From: Spirogloea muscicola
Taxonomy: Eukaryota
Direction: 5' to 3'
NCBI GenBank assembly: GCA_009602725.1
Contig: WELB01000007.1
Location: 628,647-686,338, forward strand
Length of the DNA: 57,692 bases
Both the position numbers and the translations under genes were made by a program. The notes under the pieces were generated by a model. It ran no database searches and was not told the DNA's origin. It worked only from the letters and a program-made list of their open reading frames with translations. Positions within the stretch are counted from its first letter, which is position 1, and each line of letters starts with the position of its first letter. Shown here piece by piece: positions 3,225-51,325 of the stretch.

Positions 3225-3465
3225 TGGCTTGTATTTGGCCACACAGACCCTCCATCACTTCATACACACTTCATCGCTCTCCTTCGCCATGGTCTCTTGC
3301 ATAGCTGTGTGCTTTTGGCGCCTCCTGGCCCTTTTTCTCTTCGGCTTGTTCATTCATTCTTGGCTGGCTTTTCACAGCCCCCGCCCCTTTTGTCATCAGA
3401 TGTGCTTGCCTTTGTACTTGGCCATTTTGGCCTTCGATCGTATCTAAGTACATGAGACTTTCTTG
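3225..3465 (+). mobile_element. Two adjacent 3'-UTR remnants of the RLE/CRE-like non-LTR family (subfamily B)
   Basis: 3398-3462 GATGTGCTTGCCTTTGTACTTGGCCATTTTGGCCTTCG matches the 3' UTR of the 24359-24738 copy. 3235-3390 matches 14160-14230, 19890-19915 and 38160-38260 (reverse). Confidence 0.65.
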
Positions 3466-3542
3466 CGGAAGAGGAAGGAAGACTCTTCCACTAGAGGGCG
3501 ATCAGCTGTGACTTCGGGAAGAGCTCACTTCTCCGCTCCCCA

Positions 3543-3842
3543 GGTAACTTAGGGCATTCTAGCGTCCCGCTAGCCATCGTTGCATGCTATAGAATGCGGT
3601 TATCATTGAGTCTACAGCGCTCCCAGGCACTCGCCATACACCAGCGTGCTGGTCGTGCATTAGCACAGGCTAATGGCTTCCGTGGTGGTAGTTTGGCGCC
3701 TGAGCTTAGCTTGTCAGATATGCATGTGCTCACTCGGGGATATTAGTGTCCCCCTTAGCCAGCTCATTACCCAGTTAACAGGTCATTTGTAAGGCTTGAA
3801 TTGGCCTCCCTTTCAATTTCATGCGCACCGCGCGCCTTCTCC
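3543..3842 (+). mobile_element. 5'-truncated RLE/CRE-like non-LTR retrotransposon fragment (subfamily A)
   Basis: Encodes LGHSSVPLAIVACYRMRLSLSLQRSQALAIHQRAGRALAQANGFRGG..LSLSDMHVLTRGY*. Close nucleotide match to 37759-38090 and 43469-43654. Confidence 0.8.
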
Positions 3843-4108
3843 CCAGCAGGTTCGAACCCGGCGTCTCCAACACGACACCGACGACCCTCCGGCACTCTGA
3901 GCGTTCCCGCCAAAACCCCCCCATGGCAGGCGACGACCTGTGCAGCGCCCGGCCCGCATCTCGCGGCGCGTCCGGCGGCGCAACAGCCGCCGCCGGCGCT
4001 GACGCGGAGGCTCAATTAGGTCTCTGGGCTTTCTAGGGTTCAGGGTTAGCAGGGCGGCCGCGGTGCCGGGGCAGGGCCCCTCCCCCGCCGTGCCGGGCAG
4101 TTCGCGCC

Positions 4109-7100
4109 ATGAAGTACGTGGTGGTCACCGGCGGCGTGGTGAGCGGCCTGGGGAAGGGCGTGACGGCCAGCAGCATCGGCGTCGTGCTCAAGGCCTGCGG
4201 CTTGCGCTGCACGGCCATCAAGATCGGTGAGGCCGCCAGCGTGACCTTAGCCGTCCTGGCCTCCCCCCCGCGCGGTCATGAGCGGCGGGAGTGCGCCGTA
4301 AACTTGTGAGCAGTTTATTTGTTGGGAGAAGCGAGTGGTTCTGTATTTTTGTGAAGGCCGAGAAAAATGCCTCACAAAGAAAAGACGGACTGGGCTGCCC
4401 CCGCTTGAAGCACAGACCCCTACATCAACACGGATGCGGGCACAATGTCGCCTTTCGAGCACGGCGAGGTGTTTGTGCTCGACGATGGGGGTGAGGTGAG
4501 CCCCCTCACGACCACAACTGCTGCAGCGTCCGACACTTGAAGCCTGCTGTTGGGACTTGCGCCTGCAGCATACAATCGATGAAAAGCCTGGAATTAGCTC
4601 CTCCTGCTAGTAAGAGCGCCACGCTGTGCGCGGGATTTGGGACCCAGGTGGACTTGGACCTTGGCAACTACGAGCGATTTCTGGACATCACACTGACGCG
4701 CGACAACAACATTACCACTGGAAAGATTTACCAGGTGACCCCGCGCAACACCACTATTCCAGTCAGCACCTGCAGCAGCCTCTGCTTTCACCAACAATGT
4801 CGAAACTTGTTACATTGGACTCCTCCAGCTGACAAGTTGCAATCTGAGCTACTTGCAGTCCGTGATTGAAAGAGAACGGCGCGGAGACTACCTTGGGAAG
4901 ACCGTCCAGGTCAGAGATACCTGGCTATTCTACTTGACTCTATCTTCACTTCACACATGGCAGGATTGCCAGCAAAATCTGGCTCGTCACCAATCCTGCT
5001 CCATGCGGCAGACCGCAGCATTACATCACTCACTGAGCAACCCCTTTGTCAAGCGTGTGCAGGTAGTGCCCCACATTACGGATGCCATACAGGAGTGGAT
5101 TGAAAGAGTCGCTCACATCCCAGTGGACGGTCTGCAAGGGCCGTCTGAAATCTGCATCATTGAGCTCGGCGGAACTGTTGGTACGCAGCCTTCACTCTCA
5201 GCTTCCTCTCCGTATTGCCTTACAATGCAGAAATGGCCATTCTTTACGGCACTTGGATTAATTTTGAAGATGAGCATTGTGAGCTCCTTCCGCTAAGAAA
5301 GTGCACCCTTCAGAACAGCTGCCATCCAACATGGCTGGCGCTTGGATGGTGCAACTAATGCAAGCCGTGAGAAGCTCAATCTCATTGTCAGTTGACTTGC
5401 ATGATACTGCTGTCTTTGCAGGTGACATTGAGTCAATGCCCTTCATTGAAGCTCTCCGCCAATTCCAATTTCGAGTTGGTGAGTGAACTTGGCAAGGGTT
5501 AGTCCCACGTGATAGCCTCTTTTGCTACTCTCAGGAGATTGATGTCACTTGATAAACGGTGGTCAGTGTTAGAAATCAAAATCTGGAAGTTCACAGCCAA
5601 ATACTATCAGCCCAATCAATAGATGCTGCATCAAGTTGCTGGTTGTGTTCCTCAATCTCATGCACTTCCTGTAACCGCCTCATTGAATACTGCCATGCAT
5701 TCTGGCGTGCAGGCAAGAACAATTTTTGCCTTGTACATGTGAGCCTGGTGCCTGTCTTGGGCGTGGTTGGTGAGCAGGTATGCACGCAAGCTGACGCACA
5801 GTGGAGACAAAGATGGCAATTGCAAAGGTCCAAGTCAAGTTCAATGTCTAAGTGAGAAGGATTGCTTTTGCTGGAATGTAGACAAGGAGGTCTTGCTCAA
5901 GTTGATGGGTCTAAGTTGCACATTTACCTCTGCTTTGAGGCAAGCGCTTGAGAACCCTTTGCACGGACCTGCAATTGATACACTGCCAGAGAGGTGTTGC
6001 TGTGCTGATTGGATGCTGCAGAAAACCAAGCCAACGCAGCATAGCGTCCGGGAGCTTAGGGCCCTGGGCCTCACTCCACACCTCCTAGCCTGTCGCAGTG
6101 CTCAGGTAAGCCAAGAATGTCGCCCACTGTGTGAAGCTATTGGCACAAATTAGCAGGTCATCTCATGAGTTGTAATATCAGAGTGAGCACCAAAGTGCAG
6201 CTACAAAGTGGCAGAGGCTGCATCCTCCTTCTATCGCTTTAGATTGAATGTGTGGTGCAAGTGCTTGCGTTACCAGACAGTGAATATCCTCCGCACCTTC
6301 TATGTACCAGCCTCTGGAGCAGCCGACCAAGGAGAAGCTTTCACAGTTTTGCCACGTTCCGGTCAGTCTTTTGCCTTCGATATTGCAAAATTTAAAGATA
6401 ATGCCATGCCTAGCATGTTACAGAGCTCCTCTAATGCTTGGGCAGGTCCGCCTGTTCCAGCTCTGCTAAGTTGCTCAAATGGCAGCTGGCCTAGAACTGT
6501 TCCATCTTCCTGAACGGGCTGATGCAGTCTGATCACATCCTTAACCTTCACGACGTCTCCAACATATGGCATATACCACTTATTATCAAGGTCTATCTTT
6601 AGCTCTTCTAACTTATATGTCCAGATAGTTGGTAGTTCAACATCACATCCGGCATCTCGCAGTCATATGGCACCCCTTCTTGTCTTCTTTTCTTTACATA
6701 CATTCTCTACAAGAGCAAAACAGAAGATTGTGTGGATGATGAGGACCTTCTTCCAAACTGACTGCTTGCCTCTGCCATTCTCCTGAAATTCTTCCACAGG
6801 ATCAAGGAGGTCACAGTGCTATTCTTAAGGAGTTCAATCTTCTGTAAGGGGTCAAAGCAACCAGCCCTTGATCCATGTGCTTAAGAGTGTACGACAATAC
6901 TGTATGCAAGTAAGTAGCAAATGCTTTACAAGCAGTCGACAAGTGCCTGACTGTGAAAGGCAATTACTTGAGGCACTTGCTCCTATGACTCGCTGGAAGA
7001 AATACGAGCAAGTTGCGCACACGTGTTTGTTGTGCAGCGACACGACGCCTTTACCAAAGTTGAAGGACTGGGAGGCACGGGCAAGTCGTTGGGACAGTCT

Positions 7101-13408: not shown

Positions 13409-14714
13409 TTACCAAGATGCACGTGGGCCCCATGTGCCGTTGGTCAGGCGTTGGCCGGGTGGAAGGAGTATGCCAGATATCCACTGCGTGCGGGCTGGTG
13501 CACTTGGGTGTCGGGCACGGAAGTCGGGCGGGAAGTCGCCCCGAGCGTTGATCTCGGGTGACTGCGGTGCCTCAGTGAACTTGAGCCAGCAGTTGCCCTG
13601 GACGTGGTGGTGCGCATCCGCTTCAAAGCACTCGTCGTCGGGGCAGAACACCCACGCGTTGCACGGCAGGTCCTGGAAGGGCCCGCCAACTTGCGGACCA
13701 GGGACGTGATCCCTGCGGCCGCAAGCCAGTCAAGAAGCACCAGCATTGCCCCATCAGCTCATGCATTGCCAGATGCCGCCGCTGTCGTCAGCGCTGCCAA
13801 TGCCGTCGCTGGGCCCGGCTAAGGAGCCGCCTCAAGGCGAGACCAATGGCGCCTGTATCGATGGTGGCGTGCACCTGCAGTCCTGGCAGCACTCCTCGGC
13901 CGAGGCCTTGATATTGTGGAGCCCCCAGCCGACAGCGAGGCCGTCAATGCTCACTCCCACCTCGGTGTTGCACTCCAAGCCTTCGCCGCTCTTGCCGCCC
14001 TGCCAGCCCGCCAGCGCGGCGCAGACCCGCGACCGTTACAAGGTGGCCGCGCGAGCCGCAAGCAGTGGGCCCAAAACCGGCCAGACGCTTTCCAGCACGC
14101 TCTAAAGGCAGGTGCGGGGAGCACAATGCAGGACTTGAGGCTCGCAAGCCGCGGGGCGAAAGGTGAGGAAGGAGGGAGGGAGACGGAGGAGTGGAGTGTG
14201 CATTGAGTGATGGAGGGCCTGAGTGGCCAAAGTATAATGGCAAGCACATCGACAGATGTACGTAACCAGCTGCTAAGCTGACCCGCTCAGTAACCACGAG
14301 TCAGCCATTAGAGGTCGCTAAGTGATGTCCAGGTACCGATTGGCAACGGGGAGGATTGAGGGACTTTGAAAGGGATTTGGCCACCTGGGGGTGCAGCTTG
14401 CGCCAGGCGAGCGCAGTGGGCGACTCGAGCAGGCACTCGGGCTTCACGTGCGCGTACCCGTCCACCGCCGGCGACCCACAAACGCGCGGAAGCGGCGCGT
14501 CGCCCCAATCCTCCTCCTCCTCCGTTGGCGCCGCCGCTGCGCCGCCGAGGCCGCCGTCCTCGGCTCCGCCGCCGCCGCCGCCGGAGGCGGCAGCCCAGAC
14601 GCCGGCGGTGAGGCCGATGCTGCTGGCGAGGGTCAGCAGCGCGCCCACGACGACGAAGGCGAGCATCAGCGCCGCGCCCGCGCGGAAGCTCACCGCCGCC
14701 GCCGTCGCCGCCAT
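13409..14714 (-). CDS. Secreted or membrane-anchored Cys-rich PAN/Apple-like domain protein, 3 exons
   Basis: N-terminal hydrophobic segment (LMLAFVVVGALLTL). Then CGSPAVDGYAHV, IDGLAVGWGLHNIKASAEECCQDC, CNAWVFCP, GNCWLK and QWISG, which is the CC-x2-C..CN.W..C..CWLK apple pattern. Exon 1 ends at 14385; stop at 13411-13409. Confidence 0.8.
14155..14345 (-). mobile_element. RLE/CRE-like 3' remnant (subfamily B) in intron 1 of the PAN-like gene
   Basis: Reads SLSDL*WLTRGY*, followed by GCGGGTCAGC..GATGTGCTTGCCATTATACTTTGGCCA, as in the other subfamily B copies. Confidence 0.7.
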
Positions 14715-15164
14715 GGCCTCATGCGCGGCGGCTACCCTCCGCCGCCGCCCGCAACTACCGCAGGAGCTGAGCAGGTGCTATGGTCTCCGGACCGGAAGAA
14801 TACGCGCATATGCATGTAGCTCCGGAGCCAGGGATTCCGGAGCTGAGCGGAGACCGCGGCATGTTCTGATTCCCCGTGCCCTGACTGGTGAGAGCTGGCC
14901 CGAGTGCGCCAGTGCCCCTCCGGAGAAGAAAGCAGCCGGATATAGATGTATATATAAATAATGATATAGATAATTCATGAGAAAGACTTCCAGATTGAGT
15001 GCAGTGGCTGTGATAGGCCAGCCCAAAAAGAAAGGACAAGGTCCAAGAAAAGCCATGGGAAAGATACAAGAAGCTGCTCTTCCGAAGGTGACGAGGGTAT
15101 TAAGAGCCAGCCCTCAAATCACTGAGGTGGTCCTTGTACTTGGCACAAGTACAAGGACCACCCG

Positions 15165-16020
15165 GCTGAGTGCAGCACTTCCTTGAGGCTCGGTGCCTTT
15201 GGGACTTGTGTCCTGCTACCGCATGCGCATATCTATGTCCTTACAGCAGTCCCAAGCGCTTGCTTTGCACCGCCGAGCCGGTCGCGCCCTTGCAGCAGCC
15301 TCCGGCTTGCGCAGCGGGGTTTTCTCTTCCTCCCCTCGTCTGGCATCCGGCATCATGCCAATCTCCCCAAGGCGCGGCAAGCCATACGTGCGGCGTCTGG
15401 ACGTGGTCGCCACCTCCCGGGACGGTGGGCCTCGTCTGCTCCTGGACGTGGTACTGATCGACGCATACAAGGCTGGCGCACCCACGTTGACCGTGTCTGG
15501 GCTGGGCGTCGTCCGTCGTCCAGCGCGGAGCGCAAGAAGGAGAGGCACTACCAGGGCCATCCCCGAGGGGGCCATATTTTGTGCCATGAGTATCCACGGA
15601 GGCTATGACGTGAAATGGTCTTCCCTGATCCAGCATCTGGCCCGGCTGGTTGATGCGCGTCGTCGAAGTCGGGGGGGCAGCTTAGGCCACTCCAGCATTC
15701 CGCAGGCCTTAGTTGCATATTATAGTATGCCGCTTTCGCTTAGTTTGCAGCGCTCGCAAGCATTGGCTCTTCATCAACGTGCAGGGCGCGCTCTAAGTCA
15801 GGCCTCCGGCTTTCGTGGCAGCGCTGCAGCTCCCCAAGTTAGCTTGTCGAATTTGTTTGTGCTCACCCGTGGGTATTAATGTCACCCTGTTACCTTAGGC
15901 ACCTTACTTTAGGTCTCCGTATTATGTAGCCTTGTTTAGTTTGCACTAGACTCTGCGTGGACAATGTATTGGCTTGAACTGGCCTCCCTTCCATTTCATG
16001 CGTACACCCATCCTTCTTGC
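15165..16020 (+). mobile_element. Two tandem truncated RLE-type (CRE-like) non-LTR fragments, the second retaining the restriction-like endonuclease domain
   Basis: First C-terminal fragment: CYRMRISMSLQQSQALALHRRAGR (about 15210-15320). Second: RRLDVVAT..LLLDVVLID, then AERKKERHY after a frameshift, IFCAMSIHG and LSLSLQRSQA..FVLTRGY*. This is the RxD..DV..E..K..Y and terminal ls..lQr pattern of RLE-bearing non-LTR elements, followed by the shared 3' UTR. Confidence 0.8.
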
Positions 16021-18246: not shown

Positions 18247-19819
18247 TATGTCACAAGTGTACCTGCACAAGAAGCTGCCTGGTGACCTCTCTCAGTACAA
18301 GGTCGTAAGGACTGGTGTGCATTTGAAGCAAGTGGTCTTCATCCAAATCTTACTTCGGCTGTTGCTGGCATGCATACAAACGCTCCAGTCCAATGATGTC
18401 AGGTCTGTCCAGTGACATCGTGGCGAGCACTTTCACAGCAGCCCTCAATGACATAGTCTCTTTTATGGTGGCAGCGCTTGGATCATTTGCTCAACGATGG
18501 GAAGGAGACTTCAGGCAAAGAATGAGCTCTTCAGAGCTTGGTTGTCAAGCCTTGGTTGTACAGAGTGCAAACTCTCATTGGTCCCTTGACAGCATAGCAT
18601 CTGTCAGGCTGTGCAGCCTTTATCTGCATTTGTGACGTACACAATGCATGACATCTCCACCTGGAGGTCTAGGGTTTAGGGTTAAAGGGTTATAACTGTC
18701 ATTTGTTGGGCTTAAGTAAGCTTGAAGACAGGTCTGCAGATGCCAAGAGGTGGTGTTTAGGGTTTGGGATATAGAGTGTACATTTAGCTGCCAAGGTTAC
18801 ACAAGGTCATCTTCACCTTAGAAGCACCCGAGGTCCAGTGTTTTGTCCTATAATCCTGGTTGTAGGTTGCTATGCCCTCTATTGTTGCCAGTGGTTATCT
18901 TATAATGCCCCCATTTCGTGATCCTTCTTGGCAGCTGGCCACGGTAATTGATGTGCATCAAGAGTGCTCAAGTAGAGCTTGCTCCACTGGGGAGGCTGAG
19001 ACTGGACAGCTGAGACTCCTTACCTAGAGTTGCAGCTCACATTACCAGCAAAAGACTGCATTGCATTTCAAGTAGCAGTTTAGGAAGTTGAATGCAAGCA
19101 GTAGGAGGCTTGCAAGCGAGAGAGATAGGAGCGCAGAAGCCCTGGCTTAGCCACTTGCTAAGTCATACTCGCTTCACTTATTAGCTGCTCTTGGCCTATG
19201 ATGACAATCAGTCCATGACTTACCGCCCTCATTGTGATTCGAGCAACAGCCACGAATTTGGCAAAACCCTTAATCAAAACATGGCGTCCACGACCTAGAA
19301 GGAAAGCAACACTCGCCTGTAATGCGTCAATCCAGCTGCTACGCTGCAAATTGGACCAGCAGACCAACCTCGTGCAAAGAAGAGGCTGTTGGGGGCCTGC
19401 TTTACATAGTGACGTAGGCGAGCTCCACACAACTCTAAGAAAAGGATGAGAGGGCCTCAGCCTCATATCACTGCGGGGCAGCCAGAAGGTCCGTGGCTAT
19501 CACTGCATTATATTGCAAACGTCAGACGAGCTCGCTCTTTCAATTATTACAAGGTATTCACCGACTTCAAGATCGCGGGGTCCAGTTGGGCCAGAAGAGT
19601 CACAGGTAGCCCAGCCTCAAACATTGAAGCTTTTCTCAGCCCTCGCCCTTTTGTAACGAGCTGCTTCCTCTTTCGCAGCCATTGCCCCCCTTCTGGAGTG
19701 CTTCTTATTTTTCCGGGGGGACTTCTTCTCTCAGTCCGCCGAGCGAAGAGCGGTATAGGCGCAGGGGCCAGACAAAGCCGCGGAGGCTGCCGAAGGAACT
19801 CAAGTGTGTCTTGAGTGAT

Positions 19820-19950
19820 GGAGGTTCTGAGGGTCAGCTTACAGGGGATATACATAGGTCAATGTGCTTGTCTTCGTACGCAGCCACATAGGCCATCCAT
19901 CACTCAGTACACACTGTACTCCTGGCCCAGTACAAAGGCAAGCACAATGA
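19820..19950 (+). mobile_element. RLE/CRE-like subfamily B 3'-UTR remnant, joined to an inverted copy of the same motif
   Basis: GGGTCAGCTT..AATGTGCTTGTC..GGCCATCCATCACTCAGTACACACT, then the reverse of TGTGCTTGCCTTTGTACTGGGCCA at 19923-19946. Confidence 0.6.
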
Positions 19951-20053
19951 CAGATGTACATCACCTGCTGCTTTCAGCTCTTTCGGCTGTCGTGCCATAT
20001 CCCGTCGACGGCCTATTTGTGTCGATCTGACTTAAACAGCTGACTGGGCTTCA

Positions 20054-20195
20054 CACGTGGCCTCCTAGGCTGACTCATTCACTTTTCTGTGTGATTTACG
20101 CTAAGGATGGAGGACCACTTTTTTCCCTATGTGGCTTCCTAGGCTGGGTCACCCACTTCTGTGTGTGATTTGATTCACGCTAACTATGGAGGACC

Positions 20196-20197
<2 letters not shown>
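20054..20197 (+). repeat. Imperfect tandem duplication, unit about 75 bp
   Basis: GTGGC(C/T)TCCTAGGCTG..TGTGTGATTT..ACGCTAA..ATGGAGGACCAC occurs twice. Confidence 0.8.
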
Positions 20198-20272
<75 letters not shown>

Positions 20273-20315
20273 CCCCCCTTTCGGCGACCGCTCATCAAAT
20301 GCGGACAACAACAAN

Positions 20316-20414
<99 letters not shown>

Positions 20415-20490
20415 GACAACAACAACATCGACCGCTCATCCAATGCGGACAACAACAACATCCACCGCTCATCAAATGCTGACGACAAAA
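20198..20490 (+). repeat. (CT)n microsatellites interleaved with three copies of a ~33-bp unit
   Basis: (CT)n at about 20198-20267 and 20317-20411. Unit ACCGCTCATC(A/C)AATGC(G/T)GAC(A/G)ACAA at about 20287, 20431 and 20464. Confidence 0.9.
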
Positions 20491-23400
20491 GAACGGAGCG
20501 ACTACAAGAACCCAGGCCCACGCACGACGCCAACCGGCCGAAGACCGTCCATGGCGCAACGAGGGAAGCCCATCTGCAAGCACCTCAACCACCAACAAGA
20601 CCGTCAAGGTGGGCGCTATCGAAGCGGAGGCGGAACGATCGTGGAACAGACCACTGGAGGTCACCGTCTGCAGTCAAGTCGGCCCCAGGGTCGAGAACGG
20701 CCCACGAAGGCTTAGCCAACCAGCGTAGCCAACGGCCGCATCTGGCCTACCAGGTAGCGCTGGGGTTTCACCGCGTCCGGCCCATGTTGGAGCGCGTTGT
20801 CTTGCCAGGCAATCTGCTTGGCAATACTCACCCTCCTGCAACGCCTGCGCCTACCCGCGCATGCGTTCACTCGCGCCTGCGTCCGCGAAAGCGTAGAGCT
20901 CGGCGCACACGGCGAGCGCGCATAGCGAGCCTTGCGCGGACCGGCTGCGACTGCGAGAAGTCGTTCTATCTGTGCGGTGAGCAGTCTTCATATCAGACTG
21001 TTCTTGCAAGTCTTCACGCCCGGAGTTGTTGTGCTCATTGTTTGAGTGCACATTTCTAGACCGATTGCTTGCGTGCATCCATTGGCTGCACTGCTTGTTA
21101 TATCCACGAACACAGAAAAGGTGCGGGCTTAGCCCGAGAACAATTGGGCATTTAGCATCGCGGCCGCCCATTGGGAGTCTCGCACCGTAGTGCTAGGTGA
21201 AACCATCAAGCAGACAGTGATACCACGATACTCCTTATACTGGAAACCGATTACCGGGCACTATCACGGCCCCTTGCAGCAGTGCAAACCTTCTGCCAAA
21301 TCACTGGATCATCCAGGTCCACAACGTCAGTAACAGTGCGGATGTTAGCTGGAATAACTGGATGCCGACCGTTTAGAAGAAGAAAAGGACTATAGCAGGA
21401 CAAAGAAGTCTGGTTTCACATTCGATATCCCATTATCAACCATGGTAGAAATCGGTCCCAGCGCTCCAATCCATGTTTCATTGCATATGTCATCAGACCC
21501 TTCGTCATTGTCTGCACCATCCGCTCTGCCATACCATCAGCTTGCGGATGATCCCTAGATGTAAGACGATGATCTATGAAGCTGCGATCTAACAGCTGTT
21601 GAAAGTCGCCCTTGGATTCAGTACCGCGGTCTGGAAGGACTTCGGCAGGAGCCCCATAGCGAGTAAGCACAACATTGCGGAAAATATTAGCAATGAGTTC
21701 ACTGAATTTGGTAGGAATGATAGCAACTTCGACCCATTTAGAAAAATGTTCTATCATAATTAGAAGATGAGGCCGCTGCTTCCCCAATCGGAGTGGCCCT
21801 GCCAAATCAAGACTCCATCTGTAGAAGAGCCCCCCAATTGGCAAAGGATGCAATACCGGAGATTTGAGTGAGAAGGTACTACGGATACGATCGCACTCCT
21901 CACATTGTGACAAAACATGCATGACTGTTCTTGTCACACCATGCCACCAATACCTTGGCATAAGAAGACTGATGGTACGTTTAAAACCAAAGTGTCCATA
22001 GTCTGTGTGGACATCTTGGACTTTCTGCAACCGATCAGGAGGAGGGACAACCTATTTCCTGTATTACTGATGTAGATGGATGAATTGATTGTGTTGCCAA
22101 ACACATCGCCGAGCTCGGCTTTTGATCCTGTCCTTCTGAATAGAAAGTTTAGGAAGATACATGCCAGTCTGGATGTAATGACGAACTGGAAGATCTAGCC
22201 AAACATCTTTTGAAAAGAAGGTTTATCAAGAGCACAGGCAAGTGGCGAATATATAGCAAAACAGGCCAGATAAGAAGCAGGACTACTGAGAGGTACAGAC
22301 ACAACAGCTACTGAAAGCAAAGCAAATTGCTCGTCCACAGATGTTGGTGTAGGGTTGCGGCTGAGGGCATCTGCATCCAGATTTTGTAGCCCTGGTTTCT
22401 GAATAATCTCAAACTCATACTCCGTTTAACGCAATGACCATCTGGCTAGTTTGCCAGTCGGTTGATAAGTGGTTAGTTGCCACTTCAGAGGTTGGTGATC
22501 CGTAATAAGCTTAACGGTCGTCCAAATAAGGACGGACTAAAATGCGTGACAGCCGAGACAGCTGCAAGACCTTTGCCTTCGTAAGCTGAGTAATTCCGTT
22601 GGGCAGCATTGTTAGAACGACTTGCATAAGCAATGAGATAATCGTGGTGATCTTCGTCCTGCTGTGTAAGTACAGCTCCAATGCCGGGTTTACTCCAGTC
22701 TGTGTGCAGCAGTGGAACTCTTTAGCATATGCCGGACGACGCAAAACAGGAGCTGTTGGCAGTGATCGCTTCAATTGACAAAAAGCGTTTTCCGGTTCTG
22801 ATCCCCATAGCCATGGTGTATTTTTCTTGAGAAGACTTTTAAGAGGACGAGCCAAAGAGCTAAAATGCTCAATATACCGACGATAGAAACTGGCAATTCC
22901 TAAAAACGATCTCAAAGATGTAAAATTGGTAGGTGCAGGAATGGACAGGATTGCTTGCACCTTGCTATCTTTTGGAGAAAGACTATTCTCCGTTATCTGA
23001 TGACCAAGATAATGAACCTCAGAGAGTGCAAACCGGCATTCTCCTGGATGGCACTTGTAAGCTGAGTTCTGTATCAACTTAATTACAGAGTCAACATGAG
23101 TCACATGCTCATCGAATTCATGACTGAATATTAGAACATCGTCTATGTAACATCTGGCGTATGGAATTCCTCTCAGTATCTGGTCCATAACACGCTGAAA
23201 TGTAGATGGTGCATTCTTCAGTCCAAAGGGCATTTCATTGTTATAGTGTATCTACCCCCTAGAATGCAGTTTGTGTCTATCACCAGGCTCAATTTCAATC
23301 TGATTGGACCCATTTTCCAAATCTAAGAGAGAAAACCTTTGCGGAACCAATATGGTTGAAGATCTCTTCTGAAGTAGGCATTGGATACCTATCCAACGGC

Positions 23401-23924
23401 GTGTTGGCACGTCGCAAACAATAACCGCCGTACATACGTCGGGCAGTATAGTTTCCATGTTCGTCTTTCTTTGCCGGAGGGACGGTAGGAGCTGCGAATG
23501 AACTTCTGGAAGATTCTATCATGCCAATAGCAAGCAATTCTTGACATCTCTTTTCCACAAGCTCATCCTCAAAGGGAGACAACGTATACCTTTTCCGAAG
23601 GACGGGCTTGTCATTGTTAAGATTAATTTGGAATTTGGCACCTGTATAAGTGCCTAAGTCAGCTGCTGAGAATGCAAAACATGCAATGTTCTCCTGCAGC
23701 ATTGTTAAGTGACGCCGCTGCTCATCACACAACTGAGGACCCAGCTGCCACTTGTACTCAACAATGTCTTTGTTAGCAGCAAGGGCTACAAACTTTGATT
23801 GCTACATTTTATCTTCCTCTACAATGTCCTCAAGATCAAACCAAGCTAGCAGACGGTTGTCCATGTCAGTCAGTTTATCTGCACCTGGTTTGAGGCTTTT
23901 CTCGAAGGCCTCCTGAAGTGCTGT

Positions 23925-25015
23925 TTACTTGGTCTGTAGACGTCCAAGCACACTGGTTAACCAAGTCATACTATTCAAGTCAAAAGCTTGACCTATCAAG
24001 CTATTTTTCAGCTCGTCTGGGAAGTGGGCTGGCGTGATGTCACCAGGCCAAAATTCCACGACCTTCTCTCGTTCCCTAGGAGTTGGAACATCAAATTGAG
24101 CACGAGGAGAGTCGGCTGTAAGAGGTGCAGTGATTACCATTCCTTGGCCCACTTCACCGTTTGGTTTGATGCTGTAAGCATATAATCCTGGAGTTGCCAC
24201 AAATGTACGGAGAGTGCGTCGCGGCCTGCCTGCTTTGTTGACCGGGTGATACTTAAAGTAACGTGGTACCGGTTGTAGTCGTCGTCCAGCGTCTAAGACG
24301 AGATCTACTCTGGTGTAAGGGTGTGGGTCCTGCCCGTCGATGCAAGCTTGTAAGAGGGAAAAGATTTCGTGTATTTGAAACAAACGAAGGCCAAATGGCC
24401 AAGTACAAAGGCAAGCACATCTTAAGACCTACATAACCTACAGTAGATTGACCCGCTCGGAAACCACGGGTCAAAACATAAAGGTCGCTAACCGATGCCT
24501 GGATACTAGATGGCAGATACGGAGCCCTTCTGCTACCAACTAGAGCTCGCCCAGCTTTCTGGTGCAAAGCATTAGCCTGAGCACGCTGCAAACAGGCCGA
24601 AACTCGTCGTTGCAACAACGACAGATAAGCAGCTGGCAAGCCCATCTCAGCCGGGAACACATCTGCATGTCGTGTGTAGCCTAGATTGGCTATGTTTTGA
24701 AGGAGAGTAAGGAAACGAGGACCTAAGCAGCCAGAGGGGCACTGGAGCTAAATTTGTAAAGAATAGCCTCACTCTATCTGCCAAAGAATTGACCCTAGCT
24801 GCATCAAGCTTGACGCATGGACCTTATATGAAATAATCGACGAAAATGCCTCGTAGATTTGGCGGCTCTACATTTTCTATGATGTATCTCATAGGCCCTT
24901 TTGGCCTACCGCGAGTATTCTTCATCAATTCTAGCACTGGAAAGAATAGTCTGGTACTGGGATGGTTGAAGCCTTGACTCTTTCCTGCAGCACTGAACCC
25001 TTCGCAGGGAAACCT
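23925..25015 (-). pseudogene. DNMT3-like C5 cytosine methyltransferase domain inside the Gypsy pol, interrupted
   Basis: Hand translation. Motif IV FPCEGFSAAGKSQGFNHPSTRLFF (PC at 25009-25004); motif VI YIIENV (ENV at 24877-24869); motif VIII LDAARVNSLADRVRLFFTNL (RVR at 24775-24767); motifs IX/X PREREKVVEFWPGDIT..KNSLIGQAFDLNSMTWL. In-frame stop at 24826-24824. Motif I not found. Confidence 0.9.
24359..24738 (-). mobile_element. RLE/CRE-like non-LTR 3' fragment (subfamily B) nested in the DNMT domain
   Basis: SGCLGPRFLTLLQNIA..LLQRRVSACLQRAQANALHQKAGRAL..VSDLYVLTRG plus the 3' UTR. Flanked by AGAGGG at 24353-24358 and 24733-24738. Confidence 0.85.
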
Positions 25016-25339
25016 ATGCTACATAGACAAATTTGAACCGTTCTAAACTTTGTTCATGGATTGTGATCTTTGACAACTGACAACAATCGTCTTTGTTGGC
25101 CTCTTATCAGACTGTCCTTCATGTCAGCTGGTTAAGGTAGCCAACATCTTCGTTTGAATTGTGTATCTCGTAGGCTAGTACGTCAGCATTTGTCTTCATC
25201 TGGACTCATCGACGCCATCTCGTATCGACGCCTTTGCGCATGACACGGCCCTTTGGATCTTATCAAGGGTTTTCGGGTTGGCTTTTCACAGCCCTTCGCC
25301 CTCTTTATATCGCTTAATAGACACTCCACTTCTTTGGGA

Positions 25340-25505
25340 GAGCCACATTGCAGCTGACCCCCTCAGTAACTAGAGGTCATCAGCACGTGGAAGTCGCTAA
25401 TTGATGCCCGAATGCCGGACGGCACATCGTCACACTGTGTCACCACAGTCTAATGGTCGACTAAGCTTTCTGGTGCGAAAGCATGAGCCTGGGCTCGCTG
25501 TAAGG
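25340..25505 (-). mobile_element. Degenerate RLE/CRE-like 3' remnant (subfamily B)
   Basis: LQRAQAHAF/HQKA..ASISDFHVL, followed by GTTACTGAGGGGGTCAGC. Confidence 0.65.
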
Positions 25506-25757
25506 AGGCCCGAAGAGAGCCAGACAGCACCCACGGCCGGAGGCTCTGGCAGAAGGCGCCAACGGCCGTTAGCTTCCGACGGGGCCTGGGAAGCTATGGT
25601 CAGGCTCCTGCCGGTAACGGCGGGCTTTGTCGCGAGGCAGGGCGGCAGGCCGTGCCACGACGGCGACGGCTCTGTCGCCGCGCGGCTGGCCCGGCTGGCA
25701 CGCTTTTGGCGCGACAGCCCGCCCGGCGGCTGCCAGGGCCGCCGCTGTGGCCCGGCG

Positions 25758-26879: not shown

Positions 26880-27879
26880 CCACGAGCTGCCGCGCGGAGC
26901 TCAGCTCGCAGCTCAGCCTGCCGGGCTTGGCGCCACCGTTCACGCCTGCTCCAACGCCGTCCTCGGCGCCTGGCGGCAAGCGGCAGTGGCAGGAGATCGA
27001 GGCGCAGCTGGCGCTGCTGCAGCACTCGCACGCCATGACGCTCGCCGAGTTTGAGCGCCGCAAGCAGCAGGAGCAGCAGGTCCTCCAGCTCCAGCACCTC
27101 CAGGAGGCCCTGCTGGGCATGGCCACAAACGTTGGCAATGGGGGGCAGTGGAACTCAGCCCCAGCCAGCAATGGCGGCGGACTCCTCGCAAGCGCCCTCA
27201 TGGCAGCAGTCGCCGCAGGCGGAGGCAATTCTGGCAACGACCGCAAGCGGCCCGCAGAGCTGACCCTGCCGGACTTTTACCTCGACGGGCCTGGGAGCAA
27301 CAAGCACCTGCGGCTGGAGGACGCGCCGTCGATACTGGACATGAGCCCCTTGTCGCCTTCGCCAGGCAGCGGCGGATGCCGGTACAAGGGCGTGCGGCAG
27401 CGCAAGTGGGGCAAGTGGGTGTCTGAGATCCGCGAGCCTCGCAAGCGGTCGCGCATCTGGCTTGGGTCCTTCGACACTGCTGAGGAGGCAGCCAAGGCAT
27501 ATGATGTCGCCGCTCGCATGCTCCGGGGTGACAAGGCCTTCCTCAACTTTCCTGAAAGGTCAGAACGACTACATCCACAGGATCTTTGCTGCTGATCTGG
27601 ACTACCCGGCTGTGCTCGGCTACGTGATGGATAGCATTTGCTGGTATTGTTGTCATGAATATGATCTGATGTGTCACTTTGTCCTCCTGCAGCTATGAAG
27701 AGGTGGTGCTTCCGGCAGCCACAGCCGACGCGCTCATCAAAGCTGGCGTGGAGGCAGCACGCGTCCTCGGCCTGCCATCGCCCAACTACACCCGCACACC
27801 AGCTGATGGCCCCGTCGACAGCAGCAGCAGCGGCGGCGGCTGCGGCCCCGCTGACTCCTCCGATGACGGCTCTGCCTAG
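26651..27879 (+). CDS. AP2/ERF transcription factor, DREB-type, 2 exons
   Basis: [58 protein letters not shown], with V14/E19 as in the DREB subfamily. Intron 27559-27692. The start is the first ATG after the gap, so it is tentative. Confidence 0.92.
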
Positions 27880-31900: not shown

Positions 31901-34179
31901 AAGTCTAACAAGATCACAAGGTCTCAGTCAAGGTGCAGAACTACGGCTATCAAAGAGTTGCAAAATACAGTCCACGGAGTGGCGAACCTCCAGCATCACA
32001 AGCGCAGCTTCCACCACATGCTCGGCAAGGGACGGCAAGTTCCGGCCGCTGACGCTTCCATCTTCGCCATGTCTGCTGCTGGCAGGCTGCCGCCTGAGAT
32101 CATCGCTGTTGCAGCCTCCCGGCGGTGCCAAGTCCACGTCTTTGACAGCGGCGGCAAGTGGGGCGGAGCTCGGCACAGCAGCGTCCGCGAGGTTACCTTC
32201 CTCATCCTTGACCACAATCCTCTTCTTCTCACCGTTCCCTCCTTCTCCCTCCTCCCGCCCCACCTCGCTAGAAGCCAGTGCATGACTTGCGGGGCGCACG
32301 TTCCAGAGGCCAGTGCCATCGTCACGCTCGTACACCTCCGGCGGCGCGTGCCACTCATGGCGGTCAATGGTGAGCAGCGCCGACTTGGACCTGTGGCGGT
32401 CAACTGCGGTGCGATACTCAAGCGGCACACGAGCGCCAGGTGGCAGGTCCGCCAGTGCTGCATGCAGCGTCGCGAGGTCTGGAGTCGGCAACCCGGCAAG
32501 GCGCGTGAGCAGCGCATGCTTTGGCAAGCCGGCACGTGCGAGAGCGTAGCCCGGCTCTGCAACATACACGCCGCCGGCGCCAGCGCCCGTGGCGAAGCGG
32601 AAGTTGCGTGCCTGCTGGTACGACAGAGCGTGCAGCACGCCGCCAGCAAGCTCCAGGAACAGCGCCGGCGTGACACTGTGCAGGTCCTGCACTGCGACCG
32701 CCAGCACAATGGGTGTGCCGCCACGGTCCACCTCCAAAGCCACCTCGCTACCGACGCGCCCATCCAGCACCTCCTCCAGCTCCAAGAAACTCGTCATAAC
32801 CTGCATCGCGGGCGCCGCTGATTAACAACTGATGAGTAAAGTCCAGGCTGGGTTCTGACTATTATGCCTGTTTGACTCTTAGAAGATGAGAGGAGGAGGT
32901 GGAGGAGGGAGGTGGCAGGAAGAGGGGGCAAGGAGGCGGACGGCAGGAGGCAGGTAGGAGGGAGGAGGGAGGAGGGGGAGAGCTTCTAGGAGGCGGGAAA
33001 GAGGGGTGCAGGCGAGAGGAGGAGGGAGGGGAGAGCACGGCCATCCATGTGCTCCCAGAATAATGGGGATGTAGACTGGACGGCAGCATTGGCGGCAGCG
33101 GGCAAGACGAGCAAGGGGGTCCACCTTGCCGTTGACGCGCACGAGGACGTCACCGGGCTCCAGGCGGCCGTGCGCGGGGCCGTTGGGGACCACTGAGTCC
33201 ACAACAAGCATGCCGACCTCCGCGCCCCCCTTCTCGGCGCGCACGGCCTCCTCCACCTCGTGGCGCAGCCCGAGGCGCCGCGTCTCGTCGAACCCCTTGT
33301 GCAACAACGTGGCCTGCAGCGTGCCGCGTGGGATGACCACCGGCGCCCAAGGTCCGCCGCCGGTCTCTCGCTCGTCCATGGAGGCTTGGAGCAGCTCCAG
33401 GGCGCGCACAACGCGCTCCAGCGGCAGGAAGAAGGCCGACGCGCTCGACGACTTGCTGTCCCAGTCCAGTAGGGAGCAGGAGGCGCCAAGGCAGGGCGGC
33501 GAGGCTGCGGTCAGTCGCCATGGCAGCTGCCCAGCCAGAGAGGGCGCGCAAGAGGAAGGGGAGCGAGAGCAAGGAGCTCGGGCTTATGGGCACCTGCCGG
33601 CGTTGAGGGCGACGGCGCGGCCGTGGACGTCGACGACGGGGGAGCCGGAGGAGCCGCCCTTGGTGCCGGACGCGGCCTGCATGTAGAAGGTGTTGAAGTC
33701 GTTGTACCCGTCCTTGCGGTAGTGGGGGGCGTCGCGGTCGAGGCGGGCGAGCGTGCCGGCGAGGATGGACACCTTCTCGCCGCTGTCGTTGCCGACGACG
33801 CGCACCTCCAGGCCGACGGCGGCGGCGGCGGGCGCCAGCGGGATGGCGTCGAAGGCCAGGAACTGGACGGCGGCGGGGTCGAAGCGCAGGAAGGCGAAGT
33901 CGTGGACGGGGTCGCGGTAGAGCGGCGCCGCGGGGACCTCCTCGCGGTCCACGAACGTGGCCTCCGCGACGGCGGGGCCCGGCCGCGCGACGTGCCGGTT
34001 GGTGAGCAGCAGGCCGCGCCGCTTGTCCACCACGAACCCCGTCGCGTGCGCCGACCCCGCCGCCTCGCCGTCGAACGCCCGCACCGCCGTCACCCGCAGC
34101 ACCACGACCGCCGGCACCACGCGCGCCAGGGCGCGCCGCCAACCCTCCGCCGTCCCTGCGCGCGCCGGCGTGAGCTGCG
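28978..34179 (-). CDS. DEG7: Protease Do-like 7 (DEG7 / Nma111-type HtrA serine protease), multi-exon, 5' end in the gap
   Basis: [27 protein letters not shown], catalytic [17 protein letters not shown], second protease-like half [36 protein letters not shown]-terminus [16 protein letters not shown]. Stop at 28980-28978. Confidence 0.96.
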
Positions 34180-45138: not shown

Positions 45139-48100
45139 TCACCTCTTGCTTACTTGCTGCATGTTGCTCATGATGTCGGCCAAAACCTTATTGACAACTT
45201 CCGATATGTTCTCCCACACGATCGGCTTGCTCAAATAACCACTAAGCCCTGCTTCCTCGATCTCCACAGTCAGGACGTCAGCTGTGAGGGCGTAAATTGG
45301 TATCGACTTTGCTGGACCTGGAAGTTGACGGATGAGCTTCGTGGCGCTCAGACCATCCAAGACGGGCATCTGGACATCCATGAGGACTATATCAAAACTC
45401 TCCCTCTGCACGGCTTCAAGAGCAAGTTGGCCATTGCCCACTAAAGTCACCTGAGACATGGATAGAACAATTTGTGTATTAGTGTCTGCGATTGTCCTTG
45501 TTCAATAGGCGATAAAGGCTCCCTGCAAAGAGTTCGTCTACTGTGACAAAGTAGGCCCACCGTTGTTCCTCAAGTGATGATGTTATGATTACTGCGCAGA
45601 GTTCGTTTCTCATGGCAGGTCTGCCATGAGAAACTAGCCTGAAAAGCAAGCCTGGCGTGTGTATCTCCGGTCTTTGCAAGCACTCTTGAGCTAGCAGAAG
45701 CACTCTTTACTGAAAACCTTCACAAGCATTGCATTACTTATGGAGCATAGGAAAGAGCACAAGCCTTGTGGCCGTAATGCTTGAGGATGCGTTGAATGAG
45801 AAGCTGGTTGACTTTGTTGTCTTCGGCCACCAGCACCCTCAGTTGGCCATCTTCTCCAAGAGGAACGGGCCTAGGCGACTTAGCGCGCAGCTCCTTGCTG
45901 GTGAGGGGGGCCTTGTCAAGAGCACTCTCGGCAGGCCCAGTCACCTTCTCCGGCTCCTCTGCCAGAGCCAGCGGAACAGTCACCCGGAAGGTGCTGCCTA
46001 CCCCAACTTCGCTTTCTGCTTCGATCATCCCGCCCATGAGCCCGAGCAAGCCTTTGGAGATGGCCAGCCCGAGGTGTGCGCCAGTGCCCCTTACTCCCAC
46101 CTGCTTCTCTGACTCATGAAACAGCCTCTGGAGGTGCTCTGGATCGATGCCGCAGCCTGTGTCGGACACGCTTATCTCAAACCAGACGTGCTTGTCCTCC
46201 GGCTCAAGCTCCTCGACTGTGGCCTCCCATGTCTGCTGGCACTCAAAAGTGCCCTGCTCTTGCTGCTGCCTCAACCACTGCCTCTTCCACTGCAGCTGCT
46301 CCTCCCTCCTCCTCCTCTCCTCCACTCCTTCAGCACTACTGGCCCACTCCTTGTCGAGCTCCATCGTGACCTTCCCATTCACCTCAGTTTCTGGAGCAGT
46401 GCTACCAGAGTTGGCGTGCAGTTGGGACGACTGCCTCTTTCTGGTCCGAGGCGGCTTCTTCACACCCCAGTCCGCTGTAGGCATGATTTTTGCAGTACCT
46501 ATTGAGTTGGAGGGGTCTTGACATGGACTTCTACCGGGGCTGGGGTTGTCTTGCATGATACCTTGCTGCCCAATGCTGCTGTCCTCCATCTGCACAAAAC
46601 CACGTGATTTAAAGTGGCTCCTGCTTATGACATCTCTGTCAGAAGCAGCGGCCACACCTCCTTGTCTGCTCCCACAAACGTGATCATCGCACCACTGAGT
46701 GACACGCCCCTGAATGACAGCATCAGGGTGCAGAGCCTCCGACATCTGCACGTCTTTGCAACTAGCTGGAGACATGCTCTCATCCAAGCAGCTGTCGTCT
46801 TCAACTCGTGGCACAATGCTCGCTCCTTCAGCTGGGGTGAGGGAGATGTCCAGCCTGAGTGACTCAGCTGGGTGAGATGGGCTGACAGAGGCTGGGCTGG
46901 AGGTAGTAGAACAAGGTGAGGAGGAGCTGCCCATTGTCTGCGTGGATGCTGACCGCGTGAGAAGACTGCCAAGCTGGCCAGAGGCAGACAGTGGGAACGA
47001 CTTGGAGGCTGGAGGCTCAGTGCCAGGGCTGCCGTTGGCAGGACTGCCTGGCACAACAGGTGAGTATGTTCTGCCCCAGATCCCACGAGCAGTAGAATTT
47101 TGGATCTTGGAATGCAGATCAGAGGGGGTTGACGTCTTCACCCACGTGATGGAAATAGTGCCCCGACTGGTGAACTTGACTGCATTGCTGACCAGATTGA
47201 CGAGTATCTGACCATATTGCAAGCACACATATCCATCAGGAAGGAGCACACACTGCCAATTGTAACTCCACTTGCACTTCGAGACATCTGGCCACCTACT
47301 TCAGAGAAGAAAAGGTTACGCTATGAATGAAGCATCACCTGCTTCATGCGTACAGGATCCCCGCGGAGGGCCACCAGATCTTGTGGAGGATACTGGACCT
47401 TCAATTTCAGCTGCTTCTCCTCCAGGTCAAATTGGAACAGGCTCTGCACCTGCACACGTTGAGGTGAATAAGGGAATGTGAGTCACATGGTCTCTTCACT
47501 GCCATGCCGTAACATCCTTTCACTGCCCTTTACTGTGCCTCTAAATTTCTGGTGGAGAATGGCAGCGAATACTTCAGAGTGGGTGTCTTCCACCAGGCTG
47601 ATGAAGCAACAGGGCTTTGCTGACAAGCAGCCATGAAGCATAGTTCTACACCACACATCTGCATTCCCTTGTCAACCTGATCCAACAGGTCGCCCGCGTG
47701 GAAGTCAATGTCTTCCAGTAAGAGGCGACCAGCCTCCAGCTTGCAGTAGTCTAAGATATTATTGATGACGGTCATGAGGCCTTCCGCTGAGCTTTGCATG
47801 ACAACGACAAGGCCCATCTGTTCCTGAGCCAAAGGTGTCAACTTCAGCAAGTCCAGCATGCCCAAAACACCTGCACATGTAAGAGGGCTAACCTTAGCAG
47901 GAATAGAGAACACCTCCACCCAGACAATCACATCGCAGCATGAGCTAGCCTCAACATGTTTGGTTGTTTTCCTGATCTTATCAAGCTTGCAGAAGGCAAA
48001 CATCATGACAATGACTCTTCAAGCTGTGGAAGAAGAGCAGAGTACGTCTCTGAGCAACCTCACCTGTCATGGGAGTCCGAAGCTCGTGACTCATTGTCGC

Positions 48101-51245: not shown

Positions 51246-51325
51246 GGCGCCGCCGTCGCCGCCGCCGCGGCGCCGCCTGCGGGAGCGAGCCTAGGCTGGC
51301 GCAAGGGGCCGGCGGAGGCGCCGCG

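What the first reader, a model, noticed from the sequence alone, without database searches (positions are those of the whole stretch)
23732..25060. Gypsy retrotransposon carrying its own DNMT3-like cytosine methyltransferase fused to pol
Seen in sequence: on the minus strand, upstream of the RT, one frame reads FPCEGFSAAGKSQG..RLFF (catalytic PC, motif IV), YIIENV (VI) and LDAARVNSLADRVRLFFTNL (VIII; DNMT3 has IDA..VS.AHRARYFWGNL). After a nested insert it reads PREREKVVEFWPGDIT..LIGQAFDLNSMTWL (IX/X; DNMT3 has E.ER.FGFP..YT..LLG.SW). The same frame continues through only two stop codons (TAA at 23927-23925 and one TAG) into WQLGPQLCDEQRR..FAFSAADLG, the pre-RT region. The ORF track shows only the tail. 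Established: DNMT-bearing retrotransposons have been reported in dinoflagellates and in charophyte (Klebsormidium) Gypsy elements, so the architecture is rare but not unprecedented. Inference: the ancestral element made a DNMT-RT-RH-INT polyprotein able to methylate its own cDNA or host DNA. This copy is dead (stops, an insertion, no motif I, no LTRs). It may extend the system to another lineage.
Basis: partly seen in the sequence, partly recalled or inferred. Interest (0 to 1): 0.9.

Follow-up and report, generated by a model that had tools for sequence, protein, structure and literature searches.

The report
Dead retrotransposon carrying its own DNMT3
This is a broken copy of a jumping gene, likely from a green alga, that carries a DNMT3-type DNA-methylating domain, a design already described in one alga; here a conserved, likely leaky stop codon would make that enzyme as abundant as the particle's coat protein.

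Summary
The fusion is real. DNMT motifs IV-VIII (25012-24743) and the recognition domain to motif X (24353-23946) match positions 105-203 and 207-333 of a profile of 27 relatives, split by a 380-bp high-copy insert. The family profile hits DNMT3A best (E 1e-24). Of 150 relatives found, 26 have DNMT before RT; so does a Klebsormidium nitens protein. It is therefore of the KnitGypsy-Dnmt3 kind (PMC5890265), and this scan noted moss copies before. The copy is dead: about 4 kb (gag, protease, motifs I-III) is lost, plus frameshifts. Two corrections. First, both ends survive: TGTCATG at 25245, CACGACA at 19988, with a 4-bp target duplication; relatives show A-coding-B-A-B repeats. Second, the TAG at 23804 reads TAG-CAA-TCA, the plant leaky-stop consensus. 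A stop sits at this place in 23 of 24 loci of two related subfamilies, and is the only stop in one 2417-codon copy. It is likely programmed: Gag-protease-DNMT made abundantly, RT-integrase by readthrough. Methylase activity, readthrough and host lineage are untested.

The parts
25246..25249 (-). 5' target-site duplication, GCCG
   Evidence: same 4 bases follow the 3' end; joined flanks match another repeat copy across the junction (80% over 76 bp, E 3e-11)
25020..25245 (-). 5' terminal repeat unit A, beginning TGTCATGC
   Evidence: same first bases as unit A of relatives L016, L041, L072; many sister contigs end their match at 25245 with unlike flanks; inner end approximate
24739..25012 (-). 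DNMT3-like domain, motifs IV (FPC), VI (ENV), VIII; one TAA at 24826-24824; gag, protease and motifs I-III (about 4 kb) deleted just upstream
   Evidence: PF00145 E 8.4e-9; family profile 105-203; no motif I-III remnant; A-to-motif-IV distance 230 bp here, 4.2-5.0 kb in five relatives
24359..24738 (.). nested insert, 380 bp including one copy of a 6-bp duplication; member of a very high-copy dispersed repeat, unclassified
   Evidence: depth and ends; 68-86% matches elsewhere in the window; no Rfam hit; empty form in a sister contig
23928..24358 (-). DNMT3-like domain, target-recognition region and motifs IX-X
   Evidence: family profile 207-333, E 5.6e-16; alignment
23925..23927 (-). TAA just after the DNMT domain; likely decay
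   Evidence: no readthrough context and no counterpart at this place in relatives
23796..23804 (-). TAG-CAA-TCA, likely programmed leaky stop between Gag-protease-DNMT and RT-RH-integrase
   Evidence: matches UAG-CARYYA (PMC2754532); stop at the matching place in 19 of 20 and 4 of 4 loci of two subfamilies; 4 of 927 TAG triplets in the window have this context
22715..23801 (-). Ty3/Gypsy reverse transcriptase with pre-RT region and connection; YIDD intact; frameshift near 23330, one stop
   Evidence: RVT_1 E 1.3e-15; lesion map; family profile's best PDB match is Ty3 RT
22321..22712 (-). RNase H, frameshifts near 22713 and 22505, one stop
   Evidence: tblastn with P0177, P0011, P0188
21308..22207 (-). 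integrase (H2C2 zinc finger, rve core), 2-3 stops, C-terminus shortened
   Evidence: Integrase_H2C2 E 6.7e-12, rve E 9.4e-7
20270..20282 (-). probable polypurine tract (run of seven G) followed by a GA microsatellite
   Evidence: relatives have a G run directly before unit B; position inferred, a single N lies at 20315
19988..20269 (-). 3' terminal repeat unit B, ending CACGACA; no second A unit
   Evidence: same last bases as relatives; a contig of run X5 joins this end to the start of A over 2 bases (23 of 28 match); A has no convincing match in 20000-21420
19984..19987 (-). 3' target-site duplication, GCCG
   Evidence: CA[CT]GACA+GCCG found once; in 0.1% of 5000 shuffles of a 2-kb stretch

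Best explanation
The stretch 19988-25245 is a dead, internally deleted Gypsy retrotransposon that carries a DNMT3-type domain directly ahead of its reverse transcriptase; its ancestor likely made Gag-protease-DNMT in bulk, likely read through a leaky TAG to add RT-RNase H-integrase, and would have used the packaged enzyme to methylate its own cDNA. Shown: domain order, DNMT3 affinity of the family, both ends with a 4-bp duplication, the lesions, conservation of a stop at this place in two related subfamilies. Inferred: readthrough (from the UAG-CARYYA context and conservation); release of the DNMT by the protease and packaging near Gag amounts (from general LTR-element biology, recalled); CG methylation of cDNA (by analogy to SymbioDIRS-Dnmt3, active in yeast). 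The ends belong to a family with A-coding-PPT-B-A-B repeats whose B|A joint reads GACA-NN-TGTCA, that is end joined to start. This copy has only A and one B, from loss of the second A by B-B recombination or from integration at such internal joints.
For: Colinear profile match of both DNMT pieces. 26 of 150 HMMER hits have DNMT before RT, one of them on a weak 15-bit match; 19 have it after RNase H; 105 show none, mostly short fragments that begin at the RT. Intact single chains zf-CCHC, protease, DNMT, RT, RH, integrase (P0011). Klebsormidium KFL_009030040 has DNMT at 304-568, RT at 674-930. Window RT falls in a 100/96 clade with all DNMT-bearing rows. Family profile: DNMT3A E 1.3e-24 over the whole domain, DRM2 2e-13, HhaI 2e-12; model of a relative's domain (pLDDT 91) matches DNMT3B/3A best, TM 0.73. 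Catalytic Cys in 46, motif VI in 45, motif VIII in 47 of 47 full-length relatives. Sister contigs differ from the N piece at 6 synonymous and 3 replacement sites among nine well-supported ones (expected synonymous share 0.23; list cut by the tool, so a hint only). Ends and duplication. Stop conservation; L032 has 2417 codons with that one stop.
Against: No activity is shown for any Gypsy-borne DNMT3: KnitGypsy-Dnmt3 gave no methylation in yeast (PMC5890265 section 10; inconclusive by its authors). The window's domain is at most 39% identical to any relative, sits on a long branch (1.77 against a median of 0.34) and reads DRVRLFF where 47 of 47 relatives have HRxRxxW; no difference at those codons is listed for sister contigs (table cut). 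41 loci of a third subfamily and the Klebsormidium, Closterium and P0011-type proteins have no conserved stop, and the 20-locus subfamily has CAA-CCY, not the full consensus. The abundant sister subfamily (about 20-25 times single-copy depth) was laid over RT-integrase but not over the DNMT at 80% likeness, so it is more diverged there or lacks the domain. CpG in the coding part is only slightly lower than in the rest of the window (0.67 against 0.74). The 80 loci are three subfamilies from few samples, not independent draws.
Confidence: 0.72

Rival explanations
1. The fusion is real, but in this subfamily the domain is no longer a working methyltransferase; it is kept as a DNA-binding or spacer module, or is decaying.
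Against: Catalytic FPC, ENV and both motif VIII arginines are kept; sister differences are mostly synonymous (6 of 9); the yeast test also failed for human DNMT3B.
Confidence: 0.2
2. The TAG at 23804 is ordinary decay (CAG to TAG) and the ancestor had one open gag-pol frame like the Klebsormidium protein.
For: The copy has many other stops and C-to-T changes; one subfamily of 41 loci and several proteins are open here.
Against: Full CARYYA context, which 4 of 927 TAG triplets in the window have; stop 17-25 codons before the same pre-RT position in two other subfamilies, 23 of 24 loci, one with the identical nine bases.
Confidence: 0.12
3. A host DNMT3 pseudogene happens to lie beside an unrelated Gypsy element.
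For: None found; two word-index searches with the single pieces gave no hits, which the tool marks as weak evidence.
Against: Fused relatives, no introns, both parts inside one pair of element ends with a target duplication, a sister contig bridging the RT start and the DNMT end (joint 23807-23932). Host plant DNMT3s carry DUF3444 (PMC6453930), which is not seen here.
Confidence: 0.01

Closest known systems
KnitGypsy-Dnmt3 of Klebsormidium nitens (de Mendoza et al. 2018, PMC5890265; read: abstract, sections 9, 10, 11, 15, passages of others, search in 3 supplements; the main supplementary PDF and the figures could not be seen)
   Same: Intronless DNMT3-like domain in the pol region of a Gypsy element; repeats arranged as in DIRS (A-coding-B-A-B by their legends); a K. 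nitens protein, KFL_009030040, has the same order DNMT-RT-RH-INT (that it is a KnitGypsy-Dnmt3 product is my inference) and its RT lies in the same supported clade.
   Different: Separate subfamily (about 30-33% identity over DNMT and RT start); likely leaky stop between DNMT and RT, which the K. nitens gene model lacks; only one B and no second A in this copy; divergent motif VIII; dead.
SymbioDIRS-Dnmt3 and SymbioLINE-Dnmt of Symbiodinium (same paper)
   Same: Retrotransposon-borne cytosine methyltransferase; the DIRS form is DNMT3-type, in Pol, and methylates CG de novo in yeast.
   Different: Tyrosine-recombinase or LINE elements; here a DDE integrase, TG..CA ends and a 4-bp duplication.
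EpiLTRs of Cymbomonas and Euglena (bioRxiv 10.64898/2026.05.21.726589; passages read)
   Same: LTR elements carrying a cytosine methyltransferase.
   Different: Their DNMT is sister to DNMT4 and comes with an adenine methylase and a chromodomain; the preprint sets them apart from streptophyte Gypsy-DNMT3.
Type I leaky stop of TMV and BNYVV (PMC2754532; passages read)
   Same: UAG followed by CAR-YYA, the context given as essential for readthrough; 6-10% in stable Arabidopsis lines, Tyr inserted.
   Different: Untested here; it lies after protease and DNMT rather than in a viral replicase.

Membership tests
Ty3/Gypsy LTR retrotransposons | Pol order RT, RNase H, integrase | tested here: met
Ty3/Gypsy LTR retrotransposons | RT nearest to Ty3-type enzymes | tested here: met
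   family profile's best PDB match is Ty3 RT, E 3.5e-58; no tree with named reference clades was built
Ty3/Gypsy LTR retrotransposons | TG..CA ends with a 4-6 bp target duplication | tested here: met
   TGTCATG at 25245, CACGACA at 19988, GCCG twice
Ty3/Gypsy LTR retrotransposons | Two identical direct LTRs | tested here: not met
   the two ends are unlike; relatives have split repeats instead, as described for KnitGypsy-Dnmt3
Gypsy-DNMT3 (KnitGypsy-Dnmt3 kind) | Intronless DNMT3-type domain in the pol region | tested here: met
   the DNMT3 call rests on the family profile and a relative's model; the window's N piece alone hits only HhaI weakly (E 0.02)
Gypsy-DNMT3 (KnitGypsy-Dnmt3 kind) | DNMT in the same reading frame as RT | tested here: met
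   same frame, through two stops; one likely leaky, one likely decay
Gypsy-DNMT3 (KnitGypsy-Dnmt3 kind) | DIRS-like split repeats A-coding-B-A-B | tested here: inconclusive
   met in 7 of 42 related loci of 9 kb or more, many of the others cut by contig ends; the window has A and one B only, like L019; a B-NN-A joint with the window's own end sequences exists in run X5
Gypsy-DNMT3 (KnitGypsy-Dnmt3 kind) | RT in one clade with the K. nitens element | tested here: met
   100/96 clade of 58 rows, place within it unresolved; outgroup only six ordinary Gypsy RTs from the same search
Active C5 cytosine methyltransferase | Complete motifs I-X in one frame | tested here: not met
   motifs I-III deleted, a stop and an insert in this copy
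Active C5 cytosine methyltransferase | Methyl transfer to cytosine | not testable with these tools
   needs an assay
Type I (UAG-CARYYA) readthrough signal | UAG followed by CAR-YYA, in frame with a downstream ORF | tested here: met
Type I (UAG-CARYYA) readthrough signal | Measured readthrough | not testable with these tools
   needs a reporter or ribosome profiling

The most novel reading that the evidence does not exclude
A widespread green-plant Gypsy clade packages a working DNMT3 at capsid-level amounts, set by a leaky stop placed after the methyltransferase, and integrates not at the ends of its cDNA but at an internal CA-NN-TG joint of a circular intermediate: a two-LTR circle would give A-coding-B-A-B and a one-LTR circle would give the A-coding-B form seen in this window and in L019.
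Probability: 0.22. Interest if true: 0.8.

Novelty: new variant of a known kind. Interest (0 to 1): 0.5.

Why it matters
Why a retrotransposon keeps the enzyme its host uses to silence it is still open; the 2018 paper could not show activity for the Gypsy form. A conserved leaky stop placed after the DNMT would mean the element makes the methyltransferase in Gag-like excess over RT, which points to a job inside the particle and can be tested with a short reporter. The family is also wider than in the print I found: Closterium, Marchantia and many unnamed contigs, with the domain in two positions. The end-to-start joint inside the repeats offers a testable route for a DDE integrase working on circles. 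The window's own copy is dead and adds one divergent subfamily.

Tried and rejected
No whole genome was held, so intact copies in the host could not be searched. Word-index searches with each DNMT piece found nothing. The Atlas could not read the piece. PDB sequence search with single pieces: HhaI at E 0.02 for the N piece, nothing for the C piece. A metagenome scan with P0003 alone found no relative; the DNMT-only alignment had no stretch conserved enough for a scan. No RNA holder listed; run X6 is only guessed to be RNA and was not used for expression. Remnants of motifs I-III in 25013-25757: best E 0.13, rejected. A second A unit at the 3' side: score 31 against a shuffle maximum of 28, rejected. 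Rfam over 19500-25757: no match. An altered genetic code (TAA/TAG as Gln) was considered and dropped without a test: frameshifts explain the decay and the TAG has its own context. Troyka elements as precedent for the repeats: rejected, CG ends and 3-bp duplications (PMC12440569, parts 1-3 of 5 read). REXdb survey (PMC6317226, passages), Chlamydomonas v6 (PMC9940879, passages), Ectocarpus (PMC12477816, passages), PMC2774666 (passages): no DNMT-bearing Gypsy named in the passages seen. The REM1 paper was not read. The joint 21208-25050 was first read as an A-to-B joint; rejected once B was placed at 19988-20269; it is more likely an internally deleted sister. The host could not be named; AP2/ERF likeness to Arabidopsis does not fix it.

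Full report
1. Observation. All quoted motifs are at the stated places on the minus strand. The first piece (25012-24739) holds FPC, ENV and the motif VIII region and hits Pfam PF00145 at E 8.4e-9. The second piece (24358-23928) has no Pfam or PDB hit alone. It runs in frame through TAA 23927-23925 and TAG 23804-23802 into the pre-RT region. RT, RNase H and integrase follow, with frameshifts near 23330, 22713, 22505 and between 22321 and 22207 and several stops.

2. The fusion is a family trait. An HMMER search with the second piece plus the RT start (X at the two stops) gave 1492 proteins at E up to 0.001; the best 150 were examined. With profiles built from these hits, 26 have a DNMT before the RT (one on a weak match), 19 have it after RNase H, and 105 show none, most of them short fragments that begin at the RT. 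P0011 is one chain: zinc knuckle, protease, DNMT, RT, RNase H, integrase. Named members are Closterium, Marchantia polymorpha and Klebsormidium nitens KFL_009030040, the last with DNMT at 304-568 and RT at 674-930. A profile of 27 full DNMT domains, built without the window, matches the two pieces at positions 105-203 (E 1.9e-13) and 207-333 (E 5.6e-16), and nothing else in six frames of the window below E 1. Positions 1-104 (motifs I-III) have no remnant.

3. The insert. 24359-24738 belongs to a dispersed repeat with 68-86% matches elsewhere in the window. In contigs of two runs that hold the stretch, its summed depth is about 10,000 times that of unique sequence, with ends at about 24364 and 24733. 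CCCTCT flanks it. A sister contig in X1 and X3 (one sample) continues from the first piece with bases that match those beyond the insert at 21 of 30, against at most 9 in shifted registers. These runs may be the source of the window, so they show other copies in the same genome, not independent support.

4. DNMT3 affinity. The profile of alignment A2 (ten relatives' stretches plus the two window pieces) hits DNMT3A at E 1.3e-24 over the whole domain, DRM2 at 2e-13, HhaI at 2e-12, DNMT2 at 1e-9. Alignment A1, without window sequence, gives the same order. A model of P0011's domain (pLDDT 91) is closest to DNMT3B/3A, TM 0.73. Among 47 full-length relatives the catalytic Cys is kept in 46, motif VI in 45 and HRxRxxW in 47. 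The window's domain is an outlier: at most 39% identical to any, end branch 1.77 against a median of 0.34, on the DNMT-before-RT side of a 100/99 split but with no supported sister, and it reads DRVRLFF in motif VIII. Nine well-supported differences between sister contigs and the first piece are 6 synonymous and 3 replacement (the tool's list was cut and I left out the gapped zone 24824-24860), a hint of purifying selection. The window's RT is 53% identical to its nearest row and lies in a 100/96 clade with all DNMT-bearing rows, including Klebsormidium; its place within is open (rows under 165 profile columns and near-copies were left out; bootstrap not fully settled).

5. The ends. A metagenome scan kept 80 of 289 related loci. 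Of 42 loci of 9 kb or more, 7 show A-coding-B-A-B repeats; many others are cut by contig ends. In these, A starts TGTCATG, B follows a G-rich polypurine tract and ends CA(C/T)GACA, the first B joins the second A as GACA-NN-T(G/A)TCA, and the second A abuts the second B. Of 20 loci with enough flank, 7 have an exact 4-bp duplication around such ends. This predicted the window's ends: TGTCATGC at 25245 after GCCG, and CACGACA then GCCG at 19988, a string found once and in 0.1% of 5000 shuffles. The joined flanks match another repeat copy across the junction (80% over 76 bp, E 3e-11). A contig of run X5 (another organism label, a small share) continues past 25245 with two bases and then the window's own B end (23 of 28). 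So the element is 5258 bp, has A, one B and no second A, like L019, and has lost about 4 kb between A and motif IV (230 bp here, 4.2-5.0 kb in five relatives). De Mendoza et al. describe DIRS-like repeats for KnitGypsy-Dnmt3. The reading that the B|A joint is the integration site of a circle is my hypothesis; foamy virus integrase cuts two-LTR circle joints (PMC1180852, abstract only). B-B recombination explains the window's form as well.

6. The TAG. It reads TAG-CAA-TCA, the UAG-CARYYA context given as essential for readthrough in plants (PMC2754532); 4 of 927 TAG triplets in the window have it. In the loci, one subfamily has a stop 18 codons before the RT profile start in 19 of 20 (13 TAG, 6 TAA; then CAA in 18; the exception has a Tyr codon), a second has TAG-CARYYA 25 codons before it in 4 of 4, and a third (41 loci) has no conserved stop; the window's is at 17. 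L032 has 2417 codons with this stop alone, separating Gag-protease-DNMT (1369) from RT-RH-integrase (1047). Several database proteins end at a shared point after the DNMT. The TAA at 23927 has no such context or counterpart and is likely decay.

7. Mechanism. Most likely the ancestor made Gag-protease-DNMT as its main product and the full polyprotein by readthrough (inferred). The protease would free the DNMT, which would be packaged and methylate the new cDNA, likely at CG as SymbioDIRS-Dnmt3 does in yeast (analogy; the Klebsormidium enzyme gave no signal, inconclusive by its authors). Whether that hides the cDNA from the host or tunes silencing is open. The main rival is a domain that is no longer catalytic in this subfamily (0.2).

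8. Known and new. The kind is known (PMC5890265), and two earlier notes of this scan report moss copies (unchecked AI notes, seen after my own Marchantia hits). A search for KnitGypsy, Gypsy-DNMT3 and the Marchantia ids found two papers only; searches showed no listing on a wider distribution, the stop or the joint, but I read only the papers named here, subscription journals and Repbase are not held, and the main supplement of PMC5890265 was too large to read. PMC6338049 (passages) says such elements are absent from tracheophytes; PMC12344493 (passages) repeats the 2018 cases. The host is likely a streptophyte alga, from an ERF-type AP2 gene and GC-rich, intron-rich genes; this is inference, and its RT groups with neither Klebsormidium nor Closterium rows.

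9. Verdict. Interest 0.5.

Noticed in passing
P0036, P0060, P0100, P0142 and others: A second architecture, RT-RNase H-DNMT-integrase, often with a PHD finger and with catalytic motifs kept. It forms one side of a 100/99 split in the DNMT tree and a 100/98 clade in the RT tree, next to the Klebsormidium-type rows: the domain probably moved once. Hosts unnamed. Not seen in the papers I read.
   Followed up: partly
P0181, P0182 (MARPO_0008s0049, MARPO_0020s0163): Two Marchantia polymorpha 'hypothetical proteins' are Gag-protease-DNMT products of this family; a search for their ids in the paper library found nothing.
   Followed up: partly
P0006, P0015, P0024, P0043, P0093, P0152, P0160: Closterium sp. 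NIES-53/54/65 carry several DNMT-RT subfamilies, annotated as unnamed products.
   Followed up: partly
motif IV of 47 full-length relatives: 25 read G-[WFS]-E-C and 16 G-[WF]-P-C: the usual Pro before the catalytic Cys is often Glu.
   Followed up: no
L032:976-8226: 2417 codons with a single stop (TAG-CAG-TTA) between the DNMT and RT; B|A joint CACGACA-GT-TGTCACG after the polypurine tract.
   Followed up: partly
L046: The one locus of its subfamily without the linker stop has a Tyr codon there, the residue reported at leaky UAG in plants (PMC2754532).
   Followed up: no
window 3280-3846, 14175-15888, 19782-19972, 24359-24738, 25249-25510, 37762-38442, 43468-43930: One or more dispersed repeat families fill the window; the Gypsy element landed in one such repeat and was later hit by another. 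Unclassified: no terminal inverted repeat, one fixed T-rich end.
   Followed up: partly
window 20198-20458: A GA microsatellite doubled around a single N at 20315, probably an assembly join inside the element's 3' part.
   Followed up: no
window 27383-27595 (+), 45142-49023 (-), 4739-5293 (+), 33587-34177 (-), 42117-42464 (-), 51300-51700 (+): Host genes: ERF-type AP2 factor, hybrid histidine kinase, CTP synthase, trypsin-like protease, and two MO25-like genes (read by eye; name recalled).
   Followed up: no
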